Source: Proteromonas lacertae
Lineage: Eukaryota
NCBI GenBank assembly: GCA_002245135.1
Contig: NGBS01000002.1
Span: forward strand, 310,001-374,000
Direction of reading: 5' to 3'
Length of the DNA: 64,000 bases
Shown here: piece by piece, positions 1 through 63,800 of the stretch
How the letters are laid out: every line of letters begins with the position of its first letter
Numbering within the stretch: position 1 is the stretch's first letter
Translations under genes and position numbers: made by a program
Notes under the pieces: model-generated
The model's input: the letters and a program-made list of their open reading frames with translations, nothing else
Told to the model about the DNA's origin: nothing
The model's database searches: none

Positions 1-3000
1 TAAATATGACTTTAATTTATTCTGGAAATGTGGTAATAATATACTGTAGATTGATGTTTCGTTAATACCATATTCTAATTCAATTACTTTATAGTTAAAG
101 TAAAATGGTAATTCTTTATTCAATGAATCTAAGAACATACTGCTTGGTGTATTTCCTTTCAATGTAAATAAAACCATTTCATATTTATTCTTAGAATATT
201 CAATCATAGTATCTTTTATTAAACTGACATAATTACCAGGATCAATTGTATTTAATAGAATGTTATTATTACATAACTTCACATCGTCAACATATAACAA
301 TGAAGTAGAAATTAATAAGTTATGATTTATATCTATTTTATCCATCATTCTGCTAATCTCATAATTAGAAAAGTCACTAATATATATAACAAAATCATTA
401 CCAAAATTATGTTGTTTAACAATATTAACTAAATCATTCACTATTGTTTCATACATGACAACAATATTAATATCATATTTATCCTTCATATCAATCTTAG
501 TTTTCAATAATGAAGAATATAATCTAATAGTATAACCTTGTGGGTGAGTTTTTCTATTGATTAATACTATTTTCAATGGTAAAGCTGATGTATTTTTATA
601 TCCATTAGTTGGGATTCTCATATAATCAACAATCATCATTTTATCTCGAATAAATGGATATACTTCAAACTGATCATTTTGATTAACATCAGCTGAACTA
701 TTATTATTATTAACTCTAGATAGTATATTTGCATTATTATTATTATTATTATTACTATATTCAAACCAATTCTTTATATATTTATTCACTGTTATATTAA
801 CTACATATGGAACAGAGAATATCCAATCAGGATAAACTACTGAATCATATATATTAATATATTCTTCAGAATAGGGTATATAATTGATAGTATTGAATGA
901 ATAAACGTGATAATTATTACTAGTGCCATTTATATAAGAATTTAATATATCAATATTCATATTAATAACCAACAAATCATTATGAATTCTGGTTAGATTG
1001 TAATACTGAAAACACTCTTTACATTGATCATTATCCATTAATGTTATAATTAAATCATCTTCTTCAAGTGTATTATAAACTGCAGGACTGTATGAAGCAT
1101 TGGTTATATCAGTAACAATACTTGTCTTTAACTGATAATCTTTACTTATATTATCTATCATTAACTTTATTTTATCATTATAATCATTTAGTTTGTAGAT
1201 GAATACAAATCTTGTGTATTTATGTATTTGTAGTATTGTATGTAATTGGTAATAAATCATCATACTGCTAGACATTCCTACTTTATTTATACTCTCAATA
1301 TTATCTAATTCATCATTAGTAATGTAAGGATCAAGATAATAATATTCTATCTTTCTTTGTTTAAAGTAATTACCTAATAATGCACCACAATCATTATCTC
1401 CATTACTCAATACTGTTAATATATTATCATTATCAATCTCATCAAACTTAGAGATTATATTATTACAATTCTGAGTATTATAATTTCTATATTCAATCTT
1501 TACTACTAAATTGTAACTTGCTGCTAATGAAACATATTCATTTGTAATTGCTGTAATTTTAGTTAGAAGTTGAGAATCTGAAACTTTATTCTGATTATTA
1601 ATGCTATTCTTCTTAATGTCTAATATAAATATTCCTTTTGTATATATTATTGGACTACACTTTGATTTACAATCACACTGTAATGGATATATATAATTGG
1701 GCTGTAAGAACTCCTGACTAAATGCTGAATTGTAATTGGCTGTATTATCTACAGTGATTTCATTATAATTAGTAACTCCTTGTAGTTTAAACAGTGATGT
1801 TTGATGTTGTAATATATTATCAGATGTATAATATAAATCACCCTTTGGCGCATAGTTTAATCCAGTTTCTTTATTACCATATAAATCATAAATATTCTTT
1901 CTTAAACAATTACTGAAATCTTTACTTTGTTCATGACAATCAGTTAGTAATTTTGGTACAACCAACGAACATGTCAAATGTACAATAAACATACGTTCAT
2001 TGTAATTAACTTGATTAAACGTATAACTTATTAAATCCTTCATTATTTCTGCATACATCTTCTTAGAATCAAAGATTGTAGTTGAAAATATATTCCACAT
2101 AGTATGTGCACCACTTTGTTTATAATCTTCTAATAATACTTTTGGATCTTCACTTATATGTAATATATTCAATTCAATACTTAGATTCTTAACAATGAAC
2201 TTATTAATAAATGAACTTCTACAGTTTGTATAATTATATGGTAAATAAATAATCACATCTGTTATTTTATTAACATTATCTGGTAATAGATTCTCATCAA
2301 AACTACAAGTTATTGGATCAATTAACACTGCAGTAGACACTTGTTTATTCCAACTCTTTACTTTAGCATTGATTAAATCAACAGCTAATTTACCATCATC
2401 AGTATCAACAGTAATAACCACATACTTTTCATTATTGTTATTATTGATTCTTGGTACATTAGCATCATAATATTTCATATCTCTTAATAGGAAATTACCG
2501 GTATACATAATATTCTTATCACACTGTTGTCCTACCAATGAAGATGTTGATATTAATAACGAATTACTGTTGGATATGTCATCTAAAATAACCTTTGGAA
2601 TTGGAGTGTTGAATATCCATACAAATACACCAAAGCAACTACTGTTACTACTGAATAAGAATGAATGAATAGCGTTAATTACCTTACTACTATCATTACT
2701 AATCCAAATATAAGGTAATGCATTATCATCTAAGTGATACAAGGTAATAAATAGTGTATTAATCTCCTGATAATGGTTTTTATTATTATTGGTCTTCATT
2801 TCATCTAATCCAATAAAGAATATCTTGTTATATTTATTATCTACATCATTTGTGGCTGATATTATCTTCTTATTACCATTTATACTGCATATTGTACGTT
2901 GATAAGAGGGCTGTAATAATCTATCTTCATTATTGAATGTATAAGTTGTTTTTTCTATTACTAATGGGTAGTATAAATTGTTATAAACATCATTATCATC

Positions 3001-3951
3001 TCTTAATGTATAGATGCTGTATTTATTGTGCAAATAATTAGATAATATTTCTTTATTATCTACGTAATATTGCTTAATTAAATTCTGGAATAATGGTGTA
3101 TAAAACATATGTAATGTTGAATATATCTTCTTCACTATATTCAAGTATCTAATGTAAGCATCAATACTGCTGTACTTAAAATGAATATCTTCATAACGAT
3201 CACCTTGATGTTGCTGTATTGCCATTGGGAAATAAATTGTATGAATACCCCAATAACCTCCTTGATTCTTTGATCTATTTAAAATCTCTCTCTGAGTAAG
3301 GAAATCTAAAAATACATAACGGTTCATTGAGTGGTATATATTATTAAATATTTTATCGATAAAAATATTCTTTTTCTCCATTGAAACGATTGTAATTCCA
3401 TTACCATATTTTGATTTGACAGTGGCACCATCATCAATTGGGTAATATGGACATGCTAAACCAGCTACAGCACAATAATTACTTATCCATTCATATTCAG
3501 GTGGTGGAGTGGAATCTTCACCTACAAAGATAATTGGACCATCATATGTGAAATACTTAATAACTATTTAAATTAAATAATATAAAAATGTAATATTTAT
3601 ACTGATTTCATAGGGAAAAGTGGGATTTCCAGTAGAATATACATTAGGAAGGCAGCCACTATATTCATCCATAATAAATACACTGTTAGATGTTGTATCA
3701 ATAGGTTGATTTACAAAAGTACCTGAATGGGTATAAATAACAACATCATTAACAGGACTAAAGGATTCGTTAGAACATTTGAATAAAAGATTAATATTAC
3801 TTTGATGTTTAAATACATTTGAGTAAACTCCTGATAAATAGGAAATAGACTCTGAAGTACACTCGTTCGTCTCTTTGTTTAGCACAATATAAAGGCTTTT
3901 ATCTGCAGCAACCAGTGAGATAAGTAAAAGCAGCAAAATTAATCTGTTCAT
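1..3951 (-). CDS. Large secreted/surface protein (>1300 aa, truncated by window edge) with degenerate periplasmic-binding-protein-like repeats; probable paralog of the giant GPCR
   Basis: Signal peptide MNRLILLLLLISLVAA. A GT-AG intron at 3602-3564 joins the 127-aa ORF to a frame with no stop seen in the parts translated (1-720 and 2461-3563). Motifs EYSGCLPNVYSTGNP and LVGQQCDKNIMYTGN resemble the EGxECxxNxxYTG repeat motif of the 17416-29134 gene. Confidence 0.7.
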
Positions 3952-4635: not shown

Positions 4636-7433
4636 ATGTCGATTTATGGAATTGATATTGGTGGTACGAATATAGTTATCGGCACAATTGTCACTGAAAG
4701 ATTAATTAAAGGGAGTGTTGGATGTGAGATTTTACTTAATGACTGTTCTCATCGTAAAACACCGTATATCAATATACTCTTTATTATGCTAGTGCTGTTG
4801 TTTCTTTTAAAGATCAACAAAGGTTCATTGGTGAACATGCTTCACAACAGGAACTAACTAATTATAAAAATACTGTCTCTTACATCAAAGATTTGTTTGG
4901 TAAAAAAATGTCAGACCAAGATATACAACATAGTCTAAGATATCATCCTACTGTAATGAAAGGTCAAAATGATGAAATTTCATTTCAAGTGAATTATATG
5001 AATAAAAATCAAGTATTTACAACAGAACAAATCTACCTTACCCTTCTACACAGAATTTCTCAAATTATCAACAACGACAGAAGTAATAAATACGATCCTA
5101 TCACATGTACAATCGCAGTCCCATCATATTATAATCTCAATCAAAGAGCTATACTCACTGACTTAGCAAAAATGACAGATTATAAATGTAGTGGAGTTAT
5201 ACCAGAATGCACAGCTACAGCATTAGCATATGGTATAATGAATTTACAAAGACTGAATGCCGAAGAAAAGGACACGATTGTGATGTTTGTAGATATGGGT
5301 TATATTTCAGCATCAGCTTCTGTTGTAAAATATTCAAAGAATTCACTAACTGTCTTATCCAATGAATTTGATTCATCATTAGGTGGTAGATTGATAGATG
5401 AGATTGTCTCTGATTTTATAGCAGATGCATTTGTTCAAAAGTATCATGAAGATCCGAGAAAAAATCCAAAAGCACTATTAAAGCTAAGAAAAGCAGCTGA
5501 AAAGTGTAAATTGAGTTTAAGTCCACAGGGAGTAAGTCATGCAGAAGTTGATGTTGAAAGTTTAATGAATGATATTGATTTCCATACAAGAATGCAATTA
5601 ACTGATTTAGAAAGTGGATTAAAAGCAAAACATATACCTGAAAGATTAACGGCAATAATAGAAAGAGCCTTGAAATCAGCTGGTATTACTGATTTATCTA
5701 TGATTAGTTCTACTGAAATTACAGGTGGATCTATTCGTATTCCTTTGTTGAAGAAAACAGTTGCCGAATTTTTACATTACGATTTAACAGTGATTAATTA
5801 TGGATTAAGTACAACATTGAATATGGATGAATGTATCGCAATTGGTTGTACATATTACAATGCAATTGGTAATGGAAAATGGAAATATGAAGTGAATGAA
5901 TGTCAATCCATTAAAATAGATCCTTCTGATCTTATAGGAAAAGGATTATCGTTAAATCAAGTTAGTGCATTCAAGAAAGTAGAAAAAGATATGCAAAATC
6001 AAGATGAAATGTTAAAAGAAAAAGCTGAAAAATGTAATAAATTAGAATCATTGATATATTTATATCGTAATAAATTAGATAGTATTAAAGACATTCCTCC
6101 TCCAAAGAAATTAGCATTTCAAGAAACATTAAGAGCAACTCAGGATTGGTTAGAATCATATGAATGTGAAAATGCTGATGCATTTACTGTTGATCATAAA
6201 GTTTCCAGTTTGCAGAACGATTTTGAAGCATTAACAATGAAGAATTTAACACCAAAAAATGAAAGAAAAGAAGCGTATAATCAGATTGAGGAATTGGTGA
6301 AAGAATATACAGATATTATACAATCATTTGTATTTTTAATTGTTATTATATTTTATGAATAGGATAGTAAATATACTGCATTAACATTCGAAACAAAAGA
6401 TAAAGTCCGTGGAGTGTGTAAAGAAGCAACTGATTGGTTAGATGCTGCTCAAGATAGACCAATCCAACCAAAACCAGAAGAGATTCTTCAACAGAAAGAT
6501 GAATTTGAAAAAAGATTAAAAGAATTAGTTTTCCCAGGTTCAACCTCTTCAGGAAAGAAATTAACTCGTAGAGGATCAAGTGTTACTGATTTACCAGCAA
6601 TGGCTTCAGCTGCACCATCAGCAACACCTTCAGCAGCTCCACAAGTAAGTCCATCTGTTGCACAACCTTCTCATAGAAGAGGATCAAGTGTTGGTGTTTT
6701 ACCTCCTACTGCTCCTCAGGCAAATGCACCACCAAGACCATCACAACCACAACGTCCAGCAGCTACTGCAGCTTCTAATAATCCATTCGCACAAGGTGGA
6801 GCAGCAGCATCAATACAAAGAGCATCTTCTGGAAATACTAATCCATTTGCACAGAATTATCAACAAAGACAACCAACAGCAGGAGCAGCAGCTCAAGCTG
6901 GTTATACCCCACAACAACTACAGCAGCAACAGCAACAACAACAATATGCAGCATATCAGCAACAACAAGCTGCAGCTGCTAGAGGATATCCTCAACAACA
7001 ACAAGCAGCTTATCCACAACAACAGGCTTATGCTCAACAACAGCGGGCATATCCTCGACAACAAGTTGCATATCCACAGCAACAAGCTTATCCACAACAG
7101 CAACAATATACTCCCCAACAATTACAGCAACAACAATATGCAGCTTATCAACAGCAACAAGCTGCTGCAGCTGCAGCTAGAGGTTATCCACAACAACAAG
7201 CATATCCACAACAAGCTGGTTATGCTCAACAACAGGCTTATCCACAACAACAAGCATATCCACAACAACAATATGGTGCTTATCCTCAACAACAACAACA
7301 ATACACTCCACAACAACAACAAGCATATAATGCTCAATATGCTGCTTACCAGCAACAACAAGCTGCTGCTGCAGCTGCAGCAAGAGGATATCCACAGCAA
7401 CAACAACAATATCCTAGACAAGGAGGATGGTAA
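4636..7433 (+). CDS. HSP110: Atypical Hsp110/SSE-family Hsp70 (~911 aa) with Q/Y/P/A-rich C-terminal tail
   Basis: Motifs GIDIG, LLNDCSHRKTP, AVPSYY, FVDMG, LGGRLID, EITGGSIRIP and LSTTLNMDECIAIG, plus the helical KCNKLESLIY region. Introns 4764-4792 and 6330-6362 join three ORFs in frame. Confidence 0.88.
6860..7420 (+). repeat. Coding low-complexity repeats (YPQQQ / YAAYQQQQAAAA) in the Hsp110 tail
   Basis: CAA/CAG-rich imperfect repeats, which also produce spurious overlapping ORFs in other frames. Confidence 0.9.
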
Positions 7434-17415: not shown

Positions 17416-20400
17416 ATGTATCAGAAGTTGGTGATAATATTTTATCTGATATACTTTTGTAGTGCTGATGCTATTACAAGACCATTTATATACACTGATA
17501 CTTTATCTACTGAAATGGCTGCTATAGTTGAATACTTTGGAGCTAAGAATAATAAACTTAGGTTTGAATCAAAACAGATTGATAATTCTGAAGATACAAT
17601 CAGTAAAGAGTTTTTGAAAATTAAGAATGACGGTTATGACACTGTTTTCGCATACATACCCGATGCCAACTTTACGATGATCAATCTATATGCAGCTAAG
17701 TATAACATTTATGTGTGGAATGCCATAATAATTCCTGATGACGCATGCTTTACTAACATCATATTTGGATATGATTTCCCTCTTACCAGTCTTAAAAGTA
17801 TATATATTTTATATTTTATATCATATAATAGTTATTTCTGAAAAAGTTGAGACCATGAAACATTTTGGTTATGCTTACGATTCTACCAAAATAAATAAAA
17901 ACTATATTGCTTATCTTAAAAAGACATTAGATTTTCTTAGAATAACCCCAGAAATAGAAACAGATACTCCATCTTCAGATACTTCAGCAAAGGAGATAAT
18001 AGACAGAATTGATATTGCCAATTTAGGTGGTAGTAATTTCATTTTATTCAACTATTACGATGATACTAAATTAATAAAAGCATGGTACGATAATTCAAAC
18101 AAAGATAAAATTACATTAGTCAATATGGAAACTCATGATAGAAAAACTAATCTAATTCCTGAAGCAGAAGGTTCAATGTTTCAACTTGCAAATGCTATTC
18201 TACCACAAGAATTCTTTGATGAAGTTAATAGTAAATTTGATCTTCCAAATAATAACAAAGTTGATAGCGATTTCAATGAAGAATCAATCATTTTGTTTCA
18301 GATGGGTAATTTGTATTATAAAATAGGAATGGAATATTTAGACAGTGATTTCAGTAGAGGTTATGAAATAGTAATAACAGCCTATGGTATTCCAGATATG
18401 ACTGATATAAATGGAACAAAAGTAACAATTGTCTCATCCAATAAACTACAACCTGTAACTCAATCAGGTTATTATATAAGTGATGGTAGTGGTAGTGTGA
18501 AGGTAGATACAGCGACTGATTATACTCCTTCTACAACTACTACTTATACATATGTTGATGGATTTCCAATTGAAAACATATGTGATGTACAAGATAATCT
18601 GATTAATCAAAAGACTGATAAATTATCGTATGTTATATTTATGACTTATAAATCACAAGTGTCTGATAATCCATTAGCAAAATATGAAAAGTATTTGATT
18701 GATGCATTAAATGCTGGTATAGAATATATTAATGAAAATGTATATATTTGTTATTATTATTTATATTGTATAGATGAATTTATTAGATAAAACACTATAT
18801 GCTATACATATCGACATTACCACCAGTGTAGAAAATGCATATAAAGAATTTAAAGAAAGATATACAGCATTTGAACCAATAGCAATATTCAGTTCAGCTG
18901 AATATGACTATAGAAATGCATTTCTTTCAAAGTTAATAAATGATCCAGTTGAATCTTCAAGTGGTGTTTCCAGTAGTAATATATTTTACATTCAAATCAT
19001 CCCTAGTAGTGGTAATGAATGTAAAAAGAATGTAATGTCTGGTATTAGTTTATATTCATGGTGGAAGTATGGTTTACAAATATTAGCTGAAGAATTACCA
19101 TTTAGGAAGTTATTTATAGCTTATGCTGAAAATGATGTATTCTCCAGTAACTCTGCTGTTGGTATTACCAATCTTACAACTGGTACAGGATCATTTACTA
19201 AAATTGTATCATTTTCAATGGAAGATGCTAATGTAGAACAAGCTCAGAATATATGTGGTAGTATATATAGTGAATGTCAACCAACATCAGGTTGTATTAT
19301 TGTGAATGTATTACCACGAGACTATCAAGAGATATTCTTTAAATATTATTATGATAAACGTTTAGATCCAACTATGTATCCAGTAGTTGCAATGACTTTA
19401 GATGAAGCAATAATCGAGAATTCAGGTCATCCAGAATATTATGATCAACAATATATTATTCAATATTATATTGATGATATAAATACTACTGTTGTTGATG
19501 AATTTAAAGGTTATTTATACAGAGTAAACACTTCTCAAATTCCAAATGTAACACCAGAAATGGGTTATGCATATACTGCTGTTAAGAATTTAGCAAATGT
19601 ATATATATTATTTATTTATTTATATATTTAAATAGATTATTGAATTAGCACAATCATTCTGAACTATCAAAGATATCAGCAATGATTAGATACTCCTCAG
19701 CTTTTGATGAAGTGGGTGGTAAAATAGAATGGAATGATCAAGGTTATATCAACTGTGATTTACATTTCGCAAAATATAATGCAACTGAAAAGAGATTTAT
19801 TACATTATCCTCATCACCATATATTGAACAAACTAATTCGTTCAATGATATATCCAAGAAATGCGATTGGTTTAATGGTGTACAAACTGCTACAGATTTA
19901 TATGACGTCATATTCTTATATGTAACTGATGATTATGTTGGTGATTATTTAAATGATTATAGTAAAAATGCTAATGTTATGATTGACTTTGTTAATAATG
20001 CTGGTGGTATAAATGATAAACTATTAAGAGTAACAATACAGATATTTAACAGTATTAAAGAATTAAAAGATTATGTTAGTTTACATGCAAAAGATGAAAA
20101 TATTTTAACATTTATTGGAACGACTTCAAATGATCAAAGAGATGCAATTCATGATATTCTTGTGGAAAATAATAAATTCTTATTTAGTATACATCCAAGT
20201 GAAGGTGAAAGGTGTTATAGTAATGTCATTCAAGTTGGAAGAGTTCCAAATCATTATGTTAACTCTCTTGCAAGTTTTGCGTGGAGAAAAAGTGAAGATA
20301 AAAAGGTTGTGCTTTTAGCTTATGATAATCCATTGCCTACAAGTATTGTCTATCATGTAAAAGTCTATTTTGATACATTCAGATTATTTAATAGTACATA

Positions 20401-23400
20401 TTTCATTTTAGGTGATAATTTGACTTTAGATCAATTTGTAGATAATATAACTGAGTTGTATGGTACTGATAAAGAAATTGTTATTGTAACTGCAATTGGA
20501 CAATATACTAATGAATTATTAGATAAATTAGATGGGACAAAATACTTCTTGTTTGTGTTAGATGGAAGAAAATTATTTATAAAGAGTGAACGTTGGATTG
20601 GTTCATACTTAATGTCATCGTATTTACCATCGAATACTAACTCAGCTAATACAATTTTCATTAAAACTTTTCAATCTGAATTTGGTACAAATATGCAGTT
20701 ATTGAATGAAAATGCACTCAATATCTATACATCCTTAATGTTCCTTAAGAATGCATATTCTCAAGCAACAGAATATGAATTTAATGAAATTAAAAGACAA
20801 TTAACTCAACTTACACTTAATTTACCAATTGGTGATAATATTGAGATAAATGCTAGAGATTATACAGTAACTAATTTCTATCATATATCAAAAATTGAAG
20901 ATGCAACTTTAGATATGAAAGAACAAGGTACAAATATTGTTGGAATGGTTGTATCACCATATTTACAATATGTATATATATTATTATTATTTATTTTATT
21001 ATAGAGATTTGATGAAAATCCAGGAACATGCGTATTACCTGGTTCTACAGCTACAAAATCAGAGACAATGTATATAATTATTAAACCAGAACAAGATATT
21101 GTCTTTATGATGATCAATGCGTATTGGTTTACATATTCAGTTGGTACTTCCAATGGATTTACAAAGATTTATTGTGGGGAATTTAATGCAACAGATTTAA
21201 CAGCATCTGATATGGTTATAACCTCATGTCCAACTGAAGAACAAGTTCAAATGACTAAAGATAATGAAAATCTATTAATAGTATCGGTTATTGATAAAGG
21301 GTATGGTGATTGTAATAATAAGATTGTTGATATTGGTACATTTCCTAGTCAGAGAATTATTCCATATGTTTCTTATATTGTTACATACTTTTCAAAGAAT
21401 GTTATGCTTATTTTACCAAATTCAACTACATACGAAGAAAAAACAGTATTAAATGAGACTATTATTCAAATGGGTGGTAGTATTAAGGATGTGTTAGTAG
21501 TTCCTGATGAAGATGATGTTAATAACACTAAAGTGTTATTTGATGATTTTGTATCATCTTATCAAGTTTCAATACCTGATGGTGGTGTATTTATTAATTA
21601 TTTAGAAAAACAATCCTCCTATGAAAGTCTATTTAAATCTTACTACCAAATTATGAAGAATGAATTTGATTCCATGGGTGATGCTGCAAAGAAATATACT
21701 ATATTTAGTTGGCATACTGCAAATCAAGTTTCATTAGATATTGATTTGATTGAAGGTCATTTCATGTATGCTAGTAGTTATGCAGATAGTGAAACTGCTC
21801 CAGATATATATGCAGTTGGTACAAATGTACTTGGACCATCCTATGTGTCTGAAAGTATTCAATCTAGAGTGTTATCTGCTTATGAATTTTTAAGACAAGC
21901 ATTTTATGTAACAGGCACATTTAAAGGAGATATAATGTGGGAACATATTTCCAATAATGAAGTCAGTAGTCCATTTGGTAATTTGAAAATGAATAAGAAT
22001 GATACTGGTATTACATTCCCAATGTATGTAGTTCAATCAACTAAAGAGGATGAAGTAAGTCATGTGAAAAGATATGCATTATTATCTAAAACATGGCCAG
22101 CTCAACAGTTTAGAAGAAGATTTAATGTATTTAATTATGCAATTTGTAACAAGTTCATTGGTAATGGTGAAATATCTGTTATTGATGCTATAAAGTTCTT
22201 AATTATATTACCATTATCAGGAAGATTATCATATTTTGTCAATGCATATGTTTCTGGTTATTTAGTAGCAATTGATTATATTAATGAATACTATGGAGGT
22301 ATTAAAGGTAGAATGCTTATACCAGTAATAGAGAATAGTGATTCAAATGCAGAAAATGTTAAATCATTGTTAAGAAAAGCCAAATCAGAACATAATACTA
22401 GATTAGTATTTGGTTTAGGTGAATCAAGTGTTAGAAAGAATGTACAGTCAGTATTAAAAGAAGAAGAATTATTATTATTCTATCCAGCAAGATATGAAGG
22501 TTTTGAATGTTTTAAGAATGTTATTTATATGAGTCCTCCATTTACTGAATATATAGCATCTATTATATTCTTCTATGCAAGATTAAGTTCTGATGTTTAT
22601 GTAATTTATTCTGATACAGTCAGAGATACTCAAAATGCGTATAATACTCAAGATGAACTTAGAAAAAGAGGAATTAGTGTAGTGAATATGCTTAGAATCC
22701 CGTTAGAGAATTACAAAATTGATATTATATTGAGTATTATCGTAAATGAAATGAAATCTGGTATTATTGCATCATTTTTAGATGGAAAAGCTTCTACAGA
22801 TATATTCACAGCTTTATATGATAGTGGATATGATTCAAGTACTTATGTGATTTATTCATTCAATATTCAAACAACTGATATTACAGATGAATCAATATAT
22901 CCATATTTAGATGGTCATTATTTTGTGGAAGGTTTAAATATTAAACTATTCCATACTAATGCTATTTCTGATTTAGATAAGTCAAGATATTCATATATTC
23001 AAGAAGAAGCTTCCATGCCATCAATATTATCTGTTATCTTTGCTACAAGAGCATTAAATGAAACTGAATTCACTAATGACACAGTTCCTTATTCGTTAGA
23101 CAGTGTGTTACATGCAATTCATCATGTCAATTTGAGTGATCTTATTGATAATGTTACTATTAATACGAATAACCAAATATCATTGTATTATGAAGTATCA
23201 AAGATTATATATAATCCAGAAGATGGTAGTTATGTGAAAGATAGAGTAGCTCATGTTAATAGAAACCATAATGTTAATCCATATTACAGTCAATATAGTT
23301 TAGAAGGTATTGTATATACATGTGATTGGTCATATAGTCATGATAATGTTACTAATACAACAGAAATACCAACAACTACTTTATATAATAGTGATGAAAT

Positions 23401-26400
23401 ATCCACTGACACTGAAGAAGATAGTGGAGATGATGAAACATTTAGTAGAGGAAAAATAAAACAAAAGACCATAAATATCGCTTTATTATATGAAATAACC
23501 AGTTTAGAAAATTCACAATACAATATTAGAGCACTAGATATCATGATTGGTGTAATAGACTCAATTAATCAAGAGAATTTATTCAATGAAACATATTTCA
23601 ATTACATTATATATGATGTATCAGATGAAACTAATTTGACCAATATAGCAAAAGCAATTGTAGCAGATAAGACGATCGTATTAGCAATGGGTTGTTATGA
23701 TGATAATTGTAGAACGACAGTCTCTGAGATATTCAACGATGATAATAATGAAAGAAAACTAAGTTTGTGGTTCCCAGGTCCATCATCAGGTGAAGAATGT
23801 AATAAATATACATTTTATACAGGTTTAGTACCATCTACCTATGTCAAACCATTATCATCATTCTTAGATCAAGTGAATAGTAATAATCTGATATATTTAA
23901 TAGGTGAAGATACTGACAATGATAGAGTGCTTCATAATATATTATTAAATGCATATGAAGGATTACATACATCAATGGGTGATAGTTATATTGAATCTGG
24001 TAGTAGTGGTTTGAGTTATGCAGTAGCGAATACAATAATAGCAAAGTGTCCAAGAGGATGTACTGTTATATCAACTTTAGATAGAACATCAACTATTGAT
24101 TTTGTTAATTATTTTGATACATTAATTACCACTTCCATGAAAGATTTATTCAATGTGATTATACTTGAATTAGATCAAGATATTGTTTCATCATTTAAGA
24201 TAAGTGGTAATGTTCACTATTATATAGGTGCATCTTATTTTGAATCTATTAATCCTACCTGTGCATTCATTGAAACAATCACAGAGAATTACGGTACAAT
24301 GACTTCTAATGAACTAGCTCATAACTCCTATTTATCATTAAGAATATGGACAAAAGCAGCATCTGTAGTTGGATATACAGACAGAGAAGCTTTAAGAAAA
24401 GAATTATATTCATTGACTTATGAAGGATGTCTTACTACTGTAATGATGTTTAGTAATAACCATTTATCACTACCTTATTACATAATGGAAGTTAATAAAG
24501 ATTTAACATTATCTGTTGCTTATAGTCAAACAAGAATACAAGAACCATTAGCTTGGAGTTGGGATTTAAAAGAATCTGATGGTAAGATTTGTGACTGGTC
24601 AGCTACTGGTGTTGGTGAGAAAGGAAGTGTCGAATTGTTTACAATTGCAGTTGCATTGTCAATCAGTGGTGCTTATAGAGATATTGATATGTATGTATTG
24701 AATATATTTGAGTTAATATTTGCTGATTTAAATAACAACAAGCAAGGATTATTAAGTAAAAGAGTAACTGTTCAAAGTTATGATATTGAATCTAATGATA
24801 ATATATGCGCTAATTTATTGAAAGAATATTTACATGATAAAGAAGATGGTAAAGGTGATGGAGTTATATTTACATCAGCATCCTCCTCATGTATTAGTAT
24901 GATTTCATCAGAGTTGATTGAAAAGGATATTCCAATGTTCATTATAGGTTATACAGGAGGTGAAGAATGCTATGATAATGTGTTTTATATTCAAAAAGAA
25001 CCAAGTTTTGTTGATAGATTAATTGATTTTATGATGGTTCCATCTGATCCAAAATCATTAACTTATTGTGTTATTGCTCCAGCTGATGCTATGGGACAAG
25101 GATATTATGATTATATTATTAAATATCTCAACTTTGTTGGTGCTGTAGTTGCTTATGGTGATAAAAATAGTAAAGTTGATAGTGATGATTTCTCAATTAC
25201 TGTTACAAATATGATTGATCAAGCTTCTGATGGATGTAATATTCTATTCTTAGGTAGTGTAGCAATGCATGTTACTTTAGATAAAGGCTTAACAGATGCT
25301 AAAGTAGATAGAAGTAAATTCCCTATTATTTCATTAACAACAGCATCAAATGCAGCAGTAAAAGGAGTTCATCCATTCTATTCAGCTCAGAATTATTTCA
25401 CTAATTTAGAAGGTGAATTAAATCAACAAATGAAAGATGATATATTATCTGTTACTACTTATGTGACTGAACCTATGTTTGTGTCTTATGTAATATCAAA
25501 GATGTATATAAATGCTGTAAATACTTTAAAGAAATCAAGTGCAGTTGATATAAGAGAGTATTTATATACAGCTACATTTGAAAGTGCAAGTGGTGAATTA
25601 ACTATTGGCTATAACAATTATATGAATCATTTCATATTCTTTGGTTTAATGAAAGAGAATGATCCTGAATATGGATTTGATATAGTGTTTAAATCATCTG
25701 ATATTCATAAAGCAAACACATGGAAGCATTTAATAACTAGTGGATTCTATAGATGTAATTTCCACGATACAGATGAAGGTAGTTCGTATATAGAACCATC
25801 TATTTCAATTGGTATTCTTACATCCTACAGTGGTGAGTATAGTACAACAGAAATATCAATAACCAGAGGTATAATGCTAGCAGTAAATCAATTGAACAAG
25901 AATGGTGGTATATTGAATAAGAAAATTGATATGGTAATTAGAGATGCTAAATCTGATATTAGTTTGTATGTAAAGTATGCTAAGGAATTAACAAGATTAG
26001 ATAATGTTGTATTAGTATTTGGTGGAAGTAGAGCTGTAATATATGAAGAATTAACACCCTTCTTTGAATCAAGTAGTAAATTATTCTTCTTCACTGGTAT
26101 TGCTACAACAGAGAATTGTCCAAAGTACAGTTTTAAAACGCAAATGACTGTTAGTCAAATGGTAAATGGTGTATGGAAGTATATATTACCGAATGTTGAT
26201 CATGTTTATATTGTTCAAGATTATTCAAAATTAAGTCAACAGTTTAGCAGAGGTTTAGATATATTATGTGAAAAGATACAATTAGAAACACACGTTTTGA
26301 ATCTTACATGGATTGTTGATCCATCTAATGAATTAGAAGAAATAAAGAAAGAATTCCCATTTGATACATTAGATAAAACAAGTGCGATTGTATTGACAGT

Positions 26401-29134
26401 AGAAGCTGAGAATAATAAACCAATTTTAGATTGGTTATGTAATAATAACTTTGTTGCCAGTAAAACATACGTTGTATCTGCTACTTTGGATAGATATTTA
26501 ATGGAATTTATATCTGCAAAGTGTTTAGCTGGTGCTTATCTATTAACTCCATTTATTAAAGAAATGGGTTTATCCACATCAGATACAACTACTTATTTAT
26601 CATCAGCATCAGAATTTGTAGAGAATTTCTTAGAGAATTTTGGTGATATGGAACATATAACAGCTTCTACAGAAAGTGGATATTCAGCAATCACATTATG
26701 GTCAGATGTAGTAAGTGCTTATACCATGTCATTTGATAATGATAAAGTAAGAAGTGCATTATATGGTTTTTCAACAGTTATTCCATCTGGAAGTGTAGTA
26801 ATGAATTCAAATGGTTTTGCTAGTAGAATTATATACTTGTGTTTAATAGGTCAAGATAAGAGTATCTCTGTATATGATTATGCAGCTAGTAATGAAGAAG
26901 GTGAAGCTTGGAATCATGTTTATCCTGAGAATGAAGGTTATATCTGTGATTGGTCAACTTCTGATGGTGGTCATGAGAAATACAGACCAGATTCATTAAA
27001 GATATTGTTCTTACATGAAACTAATGCGTTAAGATCAAAAGAAGTTAATTCAATGATAATGGAATATTCATTAGTACAAGATATTAACTCTGGTGGAATA
27101 AATGGAAGACAAATAGTTCCAATATTTATATTTGCTGATGCTTATGAAGATTTTAAGAATGCAACAACACCATATTTAAAGGATGAGGAAGTAGTTGCAT
27201 TATTTGGTTGTAGTAATAAAGGTTGTAATGAAAATGCTAAAGAATTTGCTGCTGCTACTGGTACATTATGGATGTATTATTCAAAATTAGAAGGAAATGC
27301 TTGTTATGGTAATAGAATAGCAATTAGTTCAACTCCAGCACAAAGATTCTTATCTGCTGAGTATTATTTAGATTCAATAGGTGTAAGAACATTGATGTTT
27401 ATAGGAGATGATAGTGCAGTGATGGATAAATACTTTAATACGGTTTATTATTATGTAAAGAATCATTATAATACAATGAAACAAACAGTTAGTAGAATTA
27501 CAATTAAAGATAAAAGTGAAATTTCAAATGTATTGACTAATATAAAGAAGAAGAAAGAGAATGATGATATTGATAGAATTGGATTATTATACTATCTCTC
27601 AGGTACTTTGAGTAATGATTTTATATCTGCATATACCAGTAATTCATTCAATAGTCGAGAAATATTAATTGTGTTTATGAATTATGTTAATGGTGATTAT
27701 TCATCCACCGCTTTATCTAATATTTATGGTTCTTTGGTTATTAATTCATTTGATAGTATTATTACAACAGCTTTATCTCAATCATTTGTCAATGCAGCAC
27801 AAGGTTTCTTAGGTATTACAAAAACTGTTGATGAAACTATTGAAGCAATTAAAGATTCATTTGTAGTATGGCAGACTGTATATACGACATCATCAACAGA
27901 TTCTAGTAAAATCATTCCACCAATTAGATATATGCAGTTATCTGCAGTTAATTTACAAGTAGATGTTCCATCAGGTTTATTATTAATTGATGAGTCATTG
28001 TACGTATCTAGAAACTCATTTATATTTGAAATCAATCGTAATGCTAAGTTTATTCAACTGTTCCCATCCAGTGGTTCAAATCATTTATTCAATTCTGATG
28101 CTTATCCAGAAGGTTTACCAGATGAATGTAAATTTGGAAAAGATCAAGTATTCCATAAGTATGATGATGCAATTTTAGGGTTAAGCTATGCATTAATGGC
28201 AATATCATTTATATTTGGTATTTCATGTTTAATATTCACAGCAATTCATAGAAAGATGAAAATTATAAAGACATTAGGTAGAGCTCATAATTATATGTGT
28301 TCAATTTCAATTATTTTATTATCAATTTCATCAATACCAATTACATTATATCCATCAGATGATGGTATAGTTTGTGCTGCAAGAGTTGTTTGTTTAGGTA
28401 TAGCTGTAAAAGGTTTGATTGGTACATTCATGGCGACTGAAGTGAAGTTATATATGAAGAGTAGAAGAGTTGGTAATTCAACAATTAAGAAAACTAAAAT
28501 ACCATTTACATTAGTATTGTCTTTTTGGTTAGGATTTATAGTATTTGAAGTGTTGATTGTGTTATTATGGTTCTTAGTTGATCCTAATCAATACATGGAA
28601 ACTGAAAGTGTATCTGAAAGTGATTATTTCAATGTTGTTAAAACAAGAGAATGTACAATTTCAACTCCATTTATAATAATTGAATTAGTTTCTGATTTTG
28701 TACCAGTTGCATCATTATTATATATGTCAAATGTAACAAAAGCACTTGCTAATCAACACAATGATTCATTTGGATTGTTTATATCTTCTATTGTTGTAAC
28801 TATACTTGGTGCTATTATGGTATTATTGGATTTCAACATTAATACTGATCCTGATTCAGTGTTATTGCTAAGATCAATGGGTATCCACTTAACAGGAATT
28901 ATATTAGCGTCGTTGTTGTTTGGCTTAAAGTTGGTTAATTTATACTTTGATGAAGATGCTAAAGATTTGACATCAAGTGGAAGTGCTGGTGTAAATGCAA
29001 CTGGTCTAGGTTCTGTTAAATCTACAAGTAAGACTTCTCATAAATCTCTTTCAAATATGTCATTTACTACCAATTTATCAAAGACATTTAATACACAAAC
29101 AAGAAGCAAATTTACAACCCTTACTAAACAATAA
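17416..29134 (+). CDS. Giant class C-like GPCR (~3855 aa): signal peptide, nine tandem type-1 periplasmic-binding (Venus flytrap) domains and a 7tm_3-like domain
   Basis: Introns 17798-17831, 18740-18773, 19599-19648 (alternative end 19635) and 20972-21004 join five ORFs. There are nine copies of a GxECxxN motif and nine Cys linkers (CDW-like). The 7TM has class C hallmarks: HRKMKIIK, CAAR, LLWFLVDP, an extracellular Cys, HNDS and LFGLK. Confidence 0.85.
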
Positions 29135-29249
29135 ATATTATTATTATTATAAGTTTGTTTTGTTTTTGATTGAAAAAAAAAGAATCAAACATCTCTCAAA
29201 CCTCAATTTTTCATTTTTATCGATTTTTTTGTGACATTAAAGAAATATA

Positions 29250-31752: not shown

Positions 31753-32373
31753 TTATTGATTTACTCCAACGACACACTTTCTACTTCGCTTAAGCGAATG
31801 AGATAGTGAATCAATTGGATCAGTTTCAGTTGATAAAGGAGGTGGATAAAACATAGAAGATGATTTGGTTGGATATGGAGGAATTGACATGAACTGAGTG
31901 GCAGAATGAGAATTCTCAGGGTTAAATTGAAAGGAGATAGTTGAAGTGGTTGTATTGTTATAATTATTCAATTCAGAATCAGGAATTCTTCTTAATACTA
32001 AATCATCATCGATAGATGGTAATTCACCAGGTGGTTCTACTATGATTTGGCTATTGGTAAGTGGATTATTCTGATTGGAAGAATATAATGATATTGGTTC
32101 ATTTGACTCCATTGAAGTTGACGAAGCAGAGGATGTTGTGGATGTTGTGGATGATGATAATGATGATGATGATGTTGCGGAATGTACAGAACGTTTTCTA
32201 CTAATGTTATTATTATTATTTGAAATAGATGGTTTGAATAATGGCAGAGATGTATTTACTACTTCTTGTTGTGGTGTTGAAGGATGTATTGGTGGTGGAG
32301 ATGGAGGTAATGATATTGGTTGTGATGGTGATGATTGCTGTTGTTGTTGCTGCTGAGGAGGAGGAAGTGTTTG

Positions 32374-32415
<42 letters not shown>

Positions 32416-34189
32416 AGGTTGTGGTTGTGGTGATGGATTAATAATTGGTTGTAATATAGGTGGAGGAGAAGCTAATGGTTGTTGTTGTTGTTGTTGTATT
32501 ACAAGTTCATTTCTATAATCATCATCATATTCTTCGTCGTCGTCGTCAATATTATTATTAGTGCTGTTACTATTATCACTGCTATATAAACTCAATGGAG
32601 TAATTGGGATTTGGTGTAGTGATGTATTAAATAATGACATTCTGTTGTTATTAATTGAATGTTTATTATTCAATGATGATCTTGTTGATTTGGTGGATGA
32701 ATAATGATTATTATATTTCTTCATCTTTCTCTTTGGCATTAATGATAATGGATCATATGGATCATCAAATATAACTGGTGGATCTAACATATATGGTGAA
32801 TTGAAATACATATCATTATTCAATAATGGCTGGTTAATACTGTCATTGTTACTATTATTATTATTATTATGTTGTTGTTTTATTATTCTACCATTGTAAT
32901 TATTGCTCTGTTGTAGCCTATGTTGTTGTTGTTGTTGTTGTGGATCTGATTGTGGAGTAGTATTGAAATCCGTAAATGGTTGACTATTAAACTTGAAATA
33001 TGGTTGTGGAGGAGGTGATGGTGGTTTATTAAACAAACCAAAAGGATGGAAAAATGGTTGGAATATTTTATAACCTAATGATTCCTCTTCGTCTTGTCGT
33101 TGTCGTTGTTGTTGTTGTTGTCGTTGATTCTGTTGGGATAATGGATTAATACAACGTGATACAGATTTCCTCTTTGTTGTTAATGATGATGATGCAGTTG
33201 TTGTTAATGAATTATGCACTGATTCTCGTTGATTATTTACTGGATTTGACAATAATGGAATAGGTACTGGAGGAACTGAAGCTGTTGGATCTATTGGGAT
33301 GATTATTGAACCATCATTCTTCACTGTCTTTATAATATTATTATTATTATGGGTACTTGTGTTTATTATTGGATTATATGGTGCTGTAGATGATCTACTG
33401 CTATCACTATCATCAGGAGTACGATAAGATGTTGTATTCGGTGTATTATCTTCAGATGACAGTAATCTAGAATCATCTCTCATTTTCTTAATTTCCGGGT
33501 AATTATACTCTAATATTCTATCAAAAATTGGTTTGAAACAACAACATGGGAAATACATAAACGTCCTATTAAAAAATCCCCAATGATTAAGAAAAAATAT
33601 GTGTATAGCTGGAATTATATATATGAATATAACACAATGAGCATATCCTATCCAACACAATACCATTAGTGTTATATATGTCCCTCTAAATGAATCACTT
33701 TTATTAGGAAAAAAGACGTTTGTACAGCCTAAAACTAACCACGGTAGAGTAAGTATAACTAATATTACATGAAAAGCTATAGCTATATTATAATATGTGA
33801 CATTCCACAATCTAGAAAATGAGATATTGACTAAAAAATACATTTTGTGAAACTCTGTCCTTGTCTTCTTCCTGATCCTTGACATTTTTCTGTTTACAAT
33901 AAAATATAAATATATTAGAAAACAAAACTGAAATGCATGCATTATACCAACAGTCTATCATATTATAATTTTAATTTTATACTAATGCCCAGCCTGCTGC
34001 TGTGGATTTATTGTGTGATAATTCAACACCAGAAACTGGTATAAACACTGATGCTTCTGTTAGGTGATATATAGCTGAAAAAAGAACACAAGAAAATCTA
34101 TGTAAATAAATTGAAATAATGTACTGATAATCTGATGAGAAGGGAGATGTTAAAATCCTATAAATCCCCTGACAAACGAACGACGCCAT
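31753..34189 (-). CDS. Hypothetical multi-TM protein with long N/Q/P/T/S low-complexity tail; start uncertain
   Basis: Several hydrophobic segments in the N-terminal ~200 aa, an intron at ~33956-33982, and poly-Q, poly-T and poly-N tracts downstream. Confidence 0.6.
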
Positions 34190-57656: not shown

Positions 57657-57810
57657 TCTATATATAATAACATATAAGTGTTTTGTGTATTGGGGAATAA
57701 AATGTTTCTTATGTAAAAACTGGATCAAGCCTTGAGTTTGACCATTTTCATTAATTTATTTTATTTTACACTAAAAGAAAGAATAATAACCGTATAAACA
57801 TTACATAAAT

Positions 57811-60513: not shown

Positions 60514-60858
60514 TTATCATATATATTGTGAATAATTAAAATAAATATAATAAAACATAAGTAATACTAATTGAAATAATATTTGTGATTTATTTTGGGA
60601 AATTGAAAAATCCAATTTTGACCAATGTTATACACGTTTTCGTTTATTCAAACAAAGATGGAAGTAATACTTATATATTTAAAATGAACAATCTAGACGA
60701 TAAACATTCTAATAGTGAGTAAAACTGATAGAAAAAATTGATTAAATGAAACGATCAAAAAATATAACGACAGTTCTTCTTATCAAATTTTAATCATTTG
60801 TTAAGGATAATCAATCCTGTAAACGATATATTTATAGAAAGAATATAATATAAATACA

Positions 60859-63800
60859 ATGTATTGGATTACATTGATATAATTGATAGGAGTGAGGGGA
60901 TTGACAAATCCACAACAAAACTTCAAGCTCTTCCTTCCACAAATAAAAGAGCCAGTAAAGTAACAACTCCACAAAAACCAAAACAAGCACAAGAATCAAG
61001 TCCTGTGAAACTTCCTGATATTAACTCAGCAAGAAAGTCTAGAACTGATAAAAAGTATTTATATCTATTCAATAATTTAATGAAAACAAATAGATCTATT
61101 CACAATCCAAATACATCAGAAAAGCTTAATACTATTGCTTCTAGTACAGTTATAGACAATTCAAATACAATAAGTCCTGCTCCACTGCGTAAATCTTCGT
61201 CTCTAAAGGCAGCAAAAGCGAACATAGAATCAAATGTCAAATTACCTTCTCCTCACAATAATGACAATAGAAATGAAAAAGAAGAAGTAGAAGAAGAACG
61301 AGGAAAACGTGTACCCTTATTAGGTATAAGTCCTTCGCAATTAGGAGTATCTTCCGATAAAAAAGCTCCAAAAACTGCTAAAATCCGTGCATTATTATCT
61401 AGTGCATTAAGAGATCATTTTTTATTTTCTAAAATAGGTCCAGACATGGAAAGCGCAGTAATTGATGCTATGGATTCAATGAGTGTACCTAAAAACACAA
61501 TGATCATAAAAGAAGGAGATATTGGAGATAATTGCTATGTAATAGAAAAAGGAACATTCCATTTCTTCGAACAGGCTCGAGGTAATGAATTAGTAAATCA
61601 ATTAGGATCAGGTTCAATATTTGGTGAATTAGCACTACTCTATAATTGTCCAAGAACAGCATCAGTGAAAGCAGCAACTGATTGTAAGGTATGGATATTA
61701 GATAGAGTAGCATTTAGAGCAATATTAGCACATTTATCAGAACAAGAATTGTTACAAGCCAAAGAGACACTAAGGTCAATAACTAGTTTGAAATTACTAA
61801 CGGATGAACAATTATCACATGTCGCAGAAGTTGTACAATTCACAGAATATGAAGATGGTGATGCAATTATTGAAAAGAATGTTGAGAATTATGTAGTTTA
61901 TGTAATACAAACTGGTAAAGTGAAGAAAACTGAAGTTGGTAAAGATAAAAAGAATGTTATTACTGAATTAGAACCAGGCCAATGTTTTGGCGAAGAAAGT
62001 CTCTACGAGGAATTACCTACTTACAGTATTGATGCAATAGGTGAAGTATCCTGTTTATGTTTTCATCAAAATGATTTTGTAAGAGTTGTTGGTAATTTGA
62101 AAGAAGTATTAGATCATAATAAACGTATTAATGCATTAAGATCAATTCCAATATTACAATATCTATCAGAAAGTGATTTAGAACAATTAGATGAAGCATT
62201 TGAAGTTGAGAATTATGAAAATGGTTCATTTATAGTAAAACAAGGAGAAATAGGACATAAATTCTATATTATACAAAAAGGAAAATGTAAGATCACTAAA
62301 GTAGTCGATGGAAAAGAGGAAATTCTCCGTACAATCAGCGACGAATCAGGTGGATATTTTGGAGAATTAGCATTACTTCATGATGATACAAGAACTGCCA
62401 ATGTTATTGCTACAGATGGTAAAGTATCATGTTTTGTATTGAATCGTAAATCATTTGATCGATTATTAGGTTCTATGAGAGATATTATGAGCCAGCATTC
62501 AGTTATGAGGACACTACAATCAGTATCTTTATTCCAAACACTTACTATAAAAGAATTAGAAGTAATGGCACAAGCATTTAGAATAAGACATTATAATAGA
62601 AATGAATATATTATGAAACAAGATTCTCCTTCTAGGGAGTTTTATATAATTAGTGAAGGTACAGTTGCATTAACTAAAGTAGAAAATGTAAATAATAAAG
62701 AAACTGTAAAGAGTGTTGGTCAATTAACAAGTGGAGATTATATTGGTGAAGTTGGTTTAATATCCAATGAAATTAGAGATACGAATGCAGTCGCAGAGAC
62801 AGAAGTGGAAGTATTTGTATTAGATGCTAAAGATTTCAGTACACTTTGTGCTCCAATGGTTACTAAACTAGAAGAATGTTTAGCTGAAAGTAAGAATGCA
62901 AATTCAAAGGTTCACATTGACAGACAGAATTATATTAAATCCACCACACTGAATGACTTTGATACTATTGCACTACTAGGTACAGGTGTATTAGGTAGAG
63001 TAACACTAGTTAAATTAAAGAAAACAGGGGAAGTATTTGGATTAAAAGCAATGTCAAAAGTAGCAATTGTGTCAAAGAAACAACAGAAAGCAGTAACCAA
63101 TGAAAAGAAGATATTATTAGCTCTAAATCATCCATTTATATTGAAATTATATAGAACCTATCAAGACAGAGATAGAATCTTTCTACTAATGGAATATGTT
63201 CAAGGTGGTGAACTTTATGGTTTATTAAGGAAATCTAATAAACATCGATTAAGAAGTAGTAAAGCAAGATTTTATGCTGCCTCTGTAATATTAGCATTGG
63301 AATATATTCATAGCAGGAAATTGGTACATAGAGATTTAAAACCTGAAAATATATTGATTGATAGTAAAGGCTTTATTAAATTAATCGATTTTGGTTTTGC
63401 TAAAGAAATCAAAGATAAGACTTATACATTATGTGGTACACCTGATTATCTTGCTCCTGAGGTTATTCTAGGTAGAGGTTATAATAAAAGCTGTGATTAT
63501 TGGTCAGTTGGTATTTTGATCTTTGAAATGTTATGCGGTCGTCCACCATTTAGAGCATCACAAGATGATAAATTATTCCAAAAAATTACTGAAGGAAACT
63601 ACGAATTTCCACCGAAATTTAGTGATTTTGGAGCTAAAGATATAATACAGAAATTTTTAGTGTTAGAACCACAACACAGAATAGGATGTTTAAAGAGAGG
63701 TATTAGAGATATTAAAGATCACGTTTGGTTCAATGGATTAGATTGGAAGTCGTTGTATCGTAGGAAGATTGAAGTACCATGGGTTCCACAAGTGAAAAGT

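What the first reader, a model, noticed from the sequence alone, without database searches (positions are those of the whole stretch)
17416..29134. Giant class C-type GPCR with nine tandem Venus-flytrap domains
Seen: five ORFs join through four short introns into ~3855 aa. The protein has a signal peptide, nine ~350-420-aa repeats and a 7TM region. Each repeat has a conserved Cys motif: PDDACFTN, SSGNECKKN, SEGERCYSN, GYGDCNNK, YEGFECFKN, SSGEECNKY, TGGEECYDN, TTENCPKY, LEGNACYGN. Each ends in a Cys linker: ICDV, KCDW, TCVL, ICNK, TCDW, ICDW, RCNF, ICDW, ECKF. Established: characterised class C GPCRs (mGluR, CaSR, GABA-B, T1R) carry a single flytrap per chain. Inference: this is a multi-flytrap chemosensory receptor, possibly combinatorial for several ligands or long enough to reach through a surface coat. 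The two Cys per repeat may form a disulfide locking each module to its linker. I do not know of a characterised receptor with this architecture.
Basis: partly seen in the sequence, partly recalled or inferred. Interest (0 to 1): 0.9.

Follow-up and report, generated by a model that had tools for sequence, protein, structure and literature searches.

The report
Nine-flytrap GPCR built from urea-binder domains
This eukaryotic gene encodes a giant cell-surface receptor with nine ligand-trap domains, closest to cyanobacterial urea-binding proteins, stacked above one G-protein-receptor membrane domain; relatives in other organisms keep the urea pocket, this one has lost it and likely senses other molecules, and a one-base break in the sequence is probably an assembly error.

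Summary
The architecture is real: signal peptide, nine flytrap repeats and a class C 7TM domain. The repeats are UrtA/AmiC-type (Pfam Peripla_BP_5) rather than ANF-type. Repeat 8 models onto picocyanobacterial UrtA (Z 48.6), and the 'linker Cys' is UrtA's own C-terminal Cys. One correction: intron 3 most likely ends at the first AG (37 nt), which leaves a one-base frameshift at about 19649-19661. An assembly error is likelier than a pseudogene, but no reads could test this. The design is a family. Nine repeats also occur in four unnamed proteins from other assemblies, three in a Capsaspora protein and two in a Phlyctochytrium protein. Three nine-repeat relatives keep the full urea pocket in most repeats. 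All nine window repeats have lost it (0-1 of 5 key residues), and the pocket diverges faster than the scaffold. The membrane-proximal repeat lacks the pocket in every member checked. The 7TM lacks K3.50 and the FxPKxY proline. No description was found in the papers searched. A two-flytrap Nematostella receptor is in print, and this scan earlier noted a five-flytrap receptor on other DNA (octopus).

The parts
17416..17797 (+). Exon 1: ATG, signal-peptide-like N-terminus (17416-17469) and first part of repeat 1
   Evidence: signal peptide judged by eye (short basic, hydrophobic, A-x-A), no predictor run
17798..17831 (+). Intron 1, 34 nt, phase 1
   Evidence: R1 aligns across the junction; the paralog at the window start has an intron at the same position and phase after its motif Cys
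17832..18739 (+). Exon 2
18740..18773 (+). Intron 2, 34 nt, phase 0
18774..19598 (+). Exon 3 (body of repeat 2)
19599..19635 (+).
19649..19662 (+). Probable one-base frameshift; the first-AG frame stops at TGA 19660-19662
   Evidence: not checked against reads
19636..20971 (+). Exon 4 (end of repeat 2, repeat 3)
20972..21004 (+). Intron 4, 33 nt, phase 0
21005..29134 (+). Exon 5, 2709 codons: repeats 4-9, 7TM and tail, genome-encoded TAA
17470..18583 (+). Repeat 1, the most degenerate flytrap (no Pfam hit)
   Evidence: HMM 22 bits; hhalign 77% alone, 96% with two putative paralogous first domains
18584..19864 (+). Repeat 2
19865..21031 (+). Repeat 3
   Evidence: Peripla_BP_5 E 3.8e-20
21032..24592 (+). 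Repeats 4, 5 and 6 (ends at 22147, 23323, 24592); disordered S/T/E-rich insert at about 23339-23446, absent from P0001 and P0002
   Evidence: AF2 pLDDT 82.5, pTM 0.80, first 69 residues and the insert below 50
24593..25756 (+). Repeat 7
25757..26947 (+). Repeat 8, best match to UrtA
   Evidence: Z 48.6, rmsd 2.4 A, 379 residues to 8HIC
26948..28129 (+). Repeat 9, membrane-proximal
28166..28948 (+). Class C 7TM domain; TM3 Cys at 28373 and ECL2 Cys at 28652
   Evidence: 7tm_3 64.2 bits, cut-off 33.5; seven helices in the model; GABA-B structures top Foldseek
28949..29134 (+). Ser/Thr-rich cytoplasmic tail, predicted disordered
   Evidence: pLDDT below 50

Best explanation
This is a class C GPCR gene whose extracellular part is a head-to-tail chain of nine flytrap domains closest to cyanobacterial urea-binding UrtA; it likely works as a dimeric chemosensor for solutes other than urea, with repeat 9 predicted to relay movement to the 7TM, and the one-base break after intron 3 is probably an assembly error. 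Shown: the architecture, the UrtA fold, the loss of the urea pocket, and the family. Inferred: the ancestor was a multivalent urea or short-amide sensor made by fusing a UrtA gene to a class C 7TM and amplifying it. In this AT-rich lineage the gene multiplied into many paralogs and the pockets were remodelled. Each UrtA C-terminal tail, probably pinned by a disulfide between the two conserved Cys, runs straight into the first strand of the next domain, so closure of a distal domain could be passed down the chain. The altered TM3/TM7 motifs suggest this copy is a ligand-binding or modulating subunit paired with a better-coupling paralog, by analogy with GABA-B1.
For: Fold: AF2 model of R8-R9-7TM has pLDDT 88.8 and pTM 0.80; R8 aligns to UrtA 8HIC through its last residue (Z 48.6), and the first strand of R9 starts two residues later. 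R4-R6 also gives pTM 0.80. Family: of 155 proteins examined, 54 have two or more flytraps and 23 of those a 7TM hit, counting the window model and one duplicate cluster member. Nine repeats occur in P0014, P0179, P0180 and P0038. Position-specific orthology holds for R4-R9 with P0001 and P0002 (34-55% identity) and for R3-R9 with P0011. Urea pocket (W120, S122, Q144, Y190, N246 of PMC10392092): all five residues are kept in 5 of 9 repeats of P0014, 8 of 9 of P0179 and 7 of 9 of P0180, against 0-1 of 5 in all nine window repeats. The last repeat lacks the pocket in P0014, P0179, P0180, P0121, P0047 and P0050. Cys pair: both present in 172 of 197 domains and both absent in 7 (Fisher p 4e-5, domains not independent). 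Frameshift as error: 3150 codons downstream are open although 5.8% of single-base changes would make a stop.
Against: No reads or transcripts were available, so neither the 11.6-kb mRNA nor the base at the break was checked. Pocket positions are less conserved between orthologues (13-14 of 45, about 30%) than the domains overall (46-47%; p about 0.02), which fits dead pockets as well as diversifying ones. K3.50 is replaced by T and the TM7 proline is lost. The disulfide geometry could not be measured on the model. A high pTM does not show mechanical coupling over nine domains. The host, and so its G proteins, were not identified.
Confidence: 0.55

Rival explanations
1. The nine domains are a structural stalk of dead flytraps that holds the distal end away from the cell, so the receptor senses contact, a macromolecule or force rather than small solutes.
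For: The scaffold and Cys pair are conserved while pocket positions drift faster than average. 26 N-glycosylation sequons lie in the ectodomain. R1 is strongly degenerate. Domain packing is predicted to be defined.
Against: R5 and R7 keep 3-6 of 9 pocket positions between orthologues. Relatives with the same nine-repeat plan keep working-type pockets, so length did not arise as a mere spacer. Pocket residues lie in loops where alignment is least sure.
Confidence: 0.24
2. The frameshift is real: this copy is a young pseudogene, or makes only a secreted 713-aa piece (repeat 1 and most of repeat 2).
For: The first-AG splice gives a stop at codon 714. The family has many paralogs in AT-rich genomes, where copies can be lost.
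Against: There is no second lesion in 3150 downstream codons; about 3 stops would be expected after 0.5% neutral divergence. Close homologs are open over the part held.
Confidence: 0.12
3. The sequence is right and the cell splices intron 3 to the second AG (50 nt), giving the first reader's 3855-aa protein with a shortened helix in repeat 2.
For: It is the shortest of the in-frame GT-AG solutions. First-AG introns of 45-56 nt also appear among the window's candidates.
Against: It skips an AG at 37 nt, one of the commonest lengths. Of the nine candidates where only the second AG opens the frame, it is the only one that skips an AG lying 29 or more nt from the donor, apart from one 40/42-nt case inside an ORF. 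It scores 11-12 bits lower and removes four residues of a conserved helix.
Confidence: 0.07
4. The window's receptor is itself a multivalent urea sensor like its relatives.
For: The closest solved structures are urea-bound UrtA proteins.
Against: At most 1 of 5 key residues is present in any repeat; mutating any of these lowers or abolishes urea binding in UrtA (PMC10392092).
Confidence: 0.02

Closest known systems
GABA-B receptor subunits (class C GPCR without a cysteine-rich domain)
   Same: 7tm_3 membrane domain joined directly to a type-I flytrap; top Foldseek hits (7C7S, 6WIV); TM3 and ECL2 Cys kept.
   Different: Nine flytraps instead of one; UrtA-type rather than ANF-type; K3.50 and the FxPKxY proline are missing; dimer and G-protein coupling untested.
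Picocyanobacterial UrtA (PDB 7S6E, 7S6F, 8HIC) and Pseudomonas AmiC (1PEA)
   Same: Same fold (Z 48.6 and 43.4). UrtA shares the YEG.EC motif and the C-terminal CDW tail.
   Different: UrtA is a soluble monomeric ABC-transporter binding protein (PMC10392092). Here it is concatenated nine times on a GPCR and the urea-binding residues are gone.
Capsaspora CAOG_05347 (KJE94759.1) and chytrid proteins KAJ3101170.1 and KAJ3207669.1
   Same: Tandem Peripla_BP_5-type domains on a class C 7TM, with a degenerate membrane-proximal repeat.
   Different: Two or three repeats; annotated only as hypothetical or as GPCR family 3 profile proteins; the first Phlyctochytrium repeat keeps 4 of 5 urea residues.
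Nematostella GABA-B homolog v1g206093
   Same: A class C GPCR with more than one flytrap in a chain (two, 26% identical; 10.1101/621060, passages).
   Different: GABA-B-type domains, and only two.
Unnamed nine-repeat proteins P0014, P0179, P0180
   Same: Nine UrtA-type repeats plus 7tm_3 in a single ORF of 3745-4080 aa.
   Different: Far closer to UrtA (P0014 repeat 5: 388 bits to 7S6E) with intact urea pockets; less AT-biased composition; hosts unknown.

Membership tests
Class C GPCR | 7tm_3 domain with seven membrane helices | tested here: met
   64.2 bits against cut-off 33.5; seven helices in the model; GABA-B and mGlu structures lead Foldseek
Class C GPCR | N-terminal extracellular type-I periplasmic-binding (flytrap) domain after a signal peptide | tested here: met
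   signal peptide judged by eye only
Class C GPCR | TM3-ECL2 cysteine pair (feature recalled) | tested here: met
   C3603 and C3696 conserved in the alignment; the TM3 Cys is its only invariant column
Class C GPCR | K3.50 to E/D6.35 ionic lock (PMC8163086) | tested here: not met
   Window reads ATEVK and P0001/P0002 ATETK where most homologs read K-x-W/Y-R; the FNE motif reads HND. Generic numbering was assigned by alignment to homologs and from recall.
Class C GPCR | FxPKxY motif at the end of TM7 (PMC8163086) | tested here: inconclusive
   Window reads FGLKLV: K kept, P lost; P0014 and Capsaspora keep FVPK
Class C GPCR | Obligate dimer and G-protein coupling | not testable with these tools
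   no complex prediction or assay was obtained
mGluR/CaSR/T1R subfamily | ANF domain followed by the nine-cysteine domain (NCD3G) | tested here: not met
   no NCD3G hit at E up to 0.1; ANF_receptor 40 bits against Peripla_BP_5 383 bits
UrtA urea-binding proteins | Cluster B-II two-lobed fold | tested here: met
   R8 Z 48.6, rmsd 2.4 A; other repeats by profile
UrtA urea-binding proteins | Urea-binding residues W120, S122, Q144, Y190, N246 | tested here: not met
   0-1 of 5 in each of nine window repeats by two alignment methods; 5 of 5 in most repeats of P0014, P0179, P0180
UrtA urea-binding proteins | Free binding protein of an ABC transporter operon | tested here: not met
   fused to a 7TM in an intron-containing gene; the neighbours scanned are a TPR gene and a TGT-family gene

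The most novel reading that the evidence does not exclude
An undescribed eukaryote-wide family of urea-sensing class C GPCRs arose by capture of a cyanobacterial-type UrtA. It carries a conserved array of nine flytraps that sums occupancy of up to eight urea sites through one rigid chain onto a single 7TM. In an AT-rich gut-protist-like lineage the same array was turned into a large combinatorial chemoreceptor repertoire in which each position reads a different solute.
Probability: 0.25. Interest if true: 0.85.

Novelty: new variant of a known kind. Interest (0 to 1): 0.67.

Why it matters
Class C GPCR flytraps are thought to descend from bacterial solute-binding proteins, but animal receptors are too diverged to show the step. 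Here relatives of the window's gene are still plainly UrtA with an intact urea pocket, so a named ligand can be tested on a bacterial binding protein wired to a GPCR. The family then shows the series from intact pockets (P0179, P0180, P0014) to fully remodelled ones (this gene). It also raises a mechanical question that single-flytrap receptors cannot: whether and how closure of a domain far from the membrane reaches the 7TM. The window's own copy is the hardest member to work on, because its ligands are unknown and its sequence carries a probable error.

Tried and rejected
No genome is held for the window, so paralog counts and G-alpha genes were not checked. No sequencing run was listed; this says nothing about expression. 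Two metagenome scans gave no close relative: the first found none, and the 80 loci kept from the second held no ORF with two flytraps or a 7TM. A search with the window's Hsp60-like ORF to place the host returned nothing because I set the E cut-off too strictly (1e-200), so the host lineage is not established. My first guess, Blastocystis, sits badly with a published InterPro table that counts 0 class C 7TM and 0 G-alpha proteins in eight Blastocystis strains, against 116 and 7 in Proteromonas lacertae (PMC12129017 Table S5). Window GC of 28.2% is near that paper's 27.0% for P. lacertae, which is a compatibility and no more. The ESM Atlas gave no answer. A dimer prediction for repeat 9 was not available: no verdict. 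An alignment meant for folding repeat 1 was out of register and was not used. Recent tandem duplication is rejected: no DNA array and 9-22% identity between repeats. A quick tree of repeats (the careful search did not finish) pairs a few positions between P0014 and P0180 but is too weak to show that nine is ancestral or to name a donor. In the BLAST test of intron 3 (16 of 18 favour the 37-nt reading), several rows are members of one cluster, so the HMM scores carry the weight. The Proteromonas genome paper is not held. Only one supplementary file of the eLife GPCR survey is held, and the domain-architecture figures and supplements of PMC3971589 and PMC3251606 were not seen; the Capsaspora architecture may be drawn there.
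Full report
Observation. The region 17416-29134 (+) holds five coding blocks separated by AT-rich GT-AG introns. All nine Cys motifs and nine tail Cys lie about 390 aa apart, followed by seven hydrophobic helices. Pfam finds Peripla_BP_5 (six stretches in the last exon, 383 bits; one in exon 4; a weak one in exon 3) and 7tm_3 (64 bits, cut-off 33.5), while ANF_receptor scores only 40 bits. Exon 1 has no Pfam hit and exon 2 only a spurious one. An HMM iterated on non-window homologs hits all nine repeats (22-280 bits). In hhalign, R1 scores 38.6 against at most 16.7 for 20 shuffles, and R2-R4 reach 98-99% probability. The repeats are 9-22% identical to each other and leave no DNA array, so the duplications are old.

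Intron 3. Introns 1, 2 and 4 are 33-34 nt and end at the first AG. After the donor at 19599 the first AG gives a 37-nt intron that is all A/T inside. The frame then reads IIELAQSF and stops at codon 714. The open frame needs a 50-nt intron that skips this AG. Among 104 intron-like candidates in the window, 37 open the frame on both sides at the first AG, mostly at 28-39 nt. Nine open it only at the second AG, and in seven of these the first AG lies 28 nt or less from the donor. Read with X at the break, the 37-nt version scores 11-12 bits higher under three HMMs and matches the conserved helix without a gap. The sequence therefore most likely has one base too many between 19649 and 19661. The 3150 codons downstream are open although 5.8% of single-base changes would create a stop, so the lesion is either an assembly error or very young. 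No genome or reads were available to decide.

What the repeats are. The closest solved sequences are picocyanobacterial UrtA (7S6E, 8HIC, 7S6F), then AmiC. An AF2 model of R8-R9-7TM, built on 38 sequences, has pLDDT 88.8 and pTM 0.80. Foldseek ranks GABA-B receptors and UrtA first. VIA-align puts R8 on 8HIC at Z 48.6, rmsd 2.4 A over 379 residues, up to UrtA's last residue; R9's first strand begins two residues later, so there is no true linker. R4-R6 models at pLDDT 82.5 and pTM 0.80, with the first 69 residues and a 36-residue S/T/E-rich insert unresolved. The two Cys are the most conserved columns across 198 domains from 44 proteins. Both are present in 172 of 197 domains spanning the two sites and both absent in 7 (domains are related and some are truncated). 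A disulfide is likely but was not measured.

The family. The word-indexed search found two close homologs, P0001 and P0002 (45% and 43%), which match R4-R9 position by position. The full HMMER scan with R8-R9-7TM gave 1144 hits. Of 155 proteins examined, 54 carry two or more flytraps and 23 of these a 7TM hit. Many of the rest end in AT-rich read-through and are probably single exons of similar genes (inference). Nine repeats recur in P0179 and P0180 (complete, starting with a signal-like sequence), P0014 (first repeat partial) and P0038 (last repeat cut, no 7TM in the ORF). P0179's eighth repeat is split by an insertion. Named members are Capsaspora CAOG_05347 (three repeats by my HMM), Phlyctochytrium KAJ3101170.1 and Dinochytrium KAJ3207669.1 (two; the latter's 7TM by Pfam only). 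A Pfiesteria protein has four repeats and no 7tm_3 hit. In a 24-row 7TM tree the window groups with P0001, P0018 and P0011 (95/88); deeper branches are weak. A diverged paralog lies at the start of the same window.

Ligand pocket. In Prochlorococcus UrtA, S122, Q144, Y190 and N246 bind urea and W120 positions N246 (PMC10392092, passages). All five are present in 5 of 9 repeats of P0014, 8 of 9 of P0179 and 7 of 9 of P0180, and 4 of 5 in the first Phlyctochytrium repeat. The window's nine repeats keep 0-1 of 5 by two alignment methods. Between the window and its two closest homologs, the nine pocket positions of R5-R9 are about 30% identical against 46-47% overall (p about 0.02). The last repeat lacks the pocket in all six non-AT-rich members checked, which suggests a relay role.

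Membrane domain. The TM3 and ECL2 Cys are kept. The TM3 lysine of the class C ionic lock is replaced (ATEVK; ATETK in both close homologs) and TM7 reads FGLKLV in place of FxPKxY, whereas P0014 and Capsaspora keep both motifs (motifs from PMC8163086, passages; numbering assigned by alignment and recall). The change is shared by orthologues, so it is not decay, but this subunit may couple unusually or not by itself.

Mechanism. Best reading (0.55): an intact gene for a chemosensory class C subunit. Its ancestor was a multivalent urea or amide sensor, its pockets now bind other solutes, and domain closure passes along a tightly packed chain to repeat 9 and the 7TM within a dimer. Shown: architecture, fold, pocket loss and family. 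Inferred: intactness, ligands, relay, dimer and coupling. Rivals: a stalk of dead flytraps (0.24), a real recent frameshift (0.12), true 50-nt splicing (0.07), retained urea sensing (0.02).

Host. Not identified. Introns of about 28-47 nt, 28% GC and genome-encoded stops fit a gut stramenopile. A published InterPro table counts 116 class C 7TM, 182 type-I PBP and 7 G-alpha proteins in Proteromonas lacertae and almost none in eight Blastocystis strains (0, 0-1 and 0; PMC12129017, passages, section 8 and Table S5 rows). The passages I saw do not discuss these receptors.

Literature. Searches found no description of multi-UrtA or nine-flytrap GPCRs; most subscription journals are outside the library. 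Surveys of non-animal class C receptors list diverse single N-terminal domains: PMC3251606 (section 20 and passages), PMC3971589 (passages), PMC12716839 (section 9 and passages) and PMC5168858 (passages). Their figures and most supplements were not seen. A two-flytrap GABA-B homolog is reported in Nematostella (10.1101/621060, passages). This scan earlier noted a five-flytrap class C receptor in octopus (unchecked here).

Verdict. A real feature and a new variant of a known kind: a class C GPCR with a nine-module UrtA-derived ectodomain, belonging to a scattered eukaryotic family for which no description was found. Interest 0.67.

Noticed in passing
window 1-3951 (-): A second, far more diverged multi-flytrap gene: signal-like N-terminus, a 39-nt intron (3564-3602) at the same position and phase after the first motif Cys as intron 1 of the finding, at least three flytrap-like repeats (hhalign 21%, 94% and 72%), no Pfam hit, running off the window start.
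   Followed up: partly
P0014, P0179, P0180 (not window): Single-ORF proteins of 3745-4080 aa with nine UrtA-like repeats and 7tm_3, most repeats keeping the full urea pocket; better experimental subjects than the window gene.
   Followed up: yes
P0181 (Pfiesteria piscicida EukProt entry): Four UrtA-like repeats mixed with Cys-rich (PF07699) regions and a multi-pass membrane region with no 7tm_3 hit: the same module on a different receptor type.
   Followed up: no
P0070, P0076, P0078 (not window): Proteins of 1517-1604 aa with a well-conserved Peripla_BP_5 domain at each end, two of them with HEAT repeats between.
   Followed up: no
window 60849-63893 (+): Kinase with four cNMP-binding domains (cGMP-dependent-kinase-like), pointing to cyclic-nucleotide signalling in the host; Blastocystis is reported to have lost nucleotide cyclases.
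   Followed up: partly
window 31753-33954 (-): 733-aa ORF with an N-terminal hydrophobic, Cys-rich stretch and a long low-complexity Q/P/S/T/N tail; no Pfam hit.
   Followed up: partly
window 57790-60513 (+): RBR-type (IBR) ubiquitin-ligase-like ORF with an internal array of QQPTQTIQQPY-like repeats.
   Followed up: partly
window 4758-7433 (+): Hsp70/Hsp110-like gene with a long Q/A/Y/P-rich C-terminal extension in its second exon.
   Followed up: partly
window 29135-29165 (+): A TTTGTTTTGTT stretch about 20 nt after the stop of the finding; similar T/G-rich stretches follow several other stops in the window.
   Followed up: no
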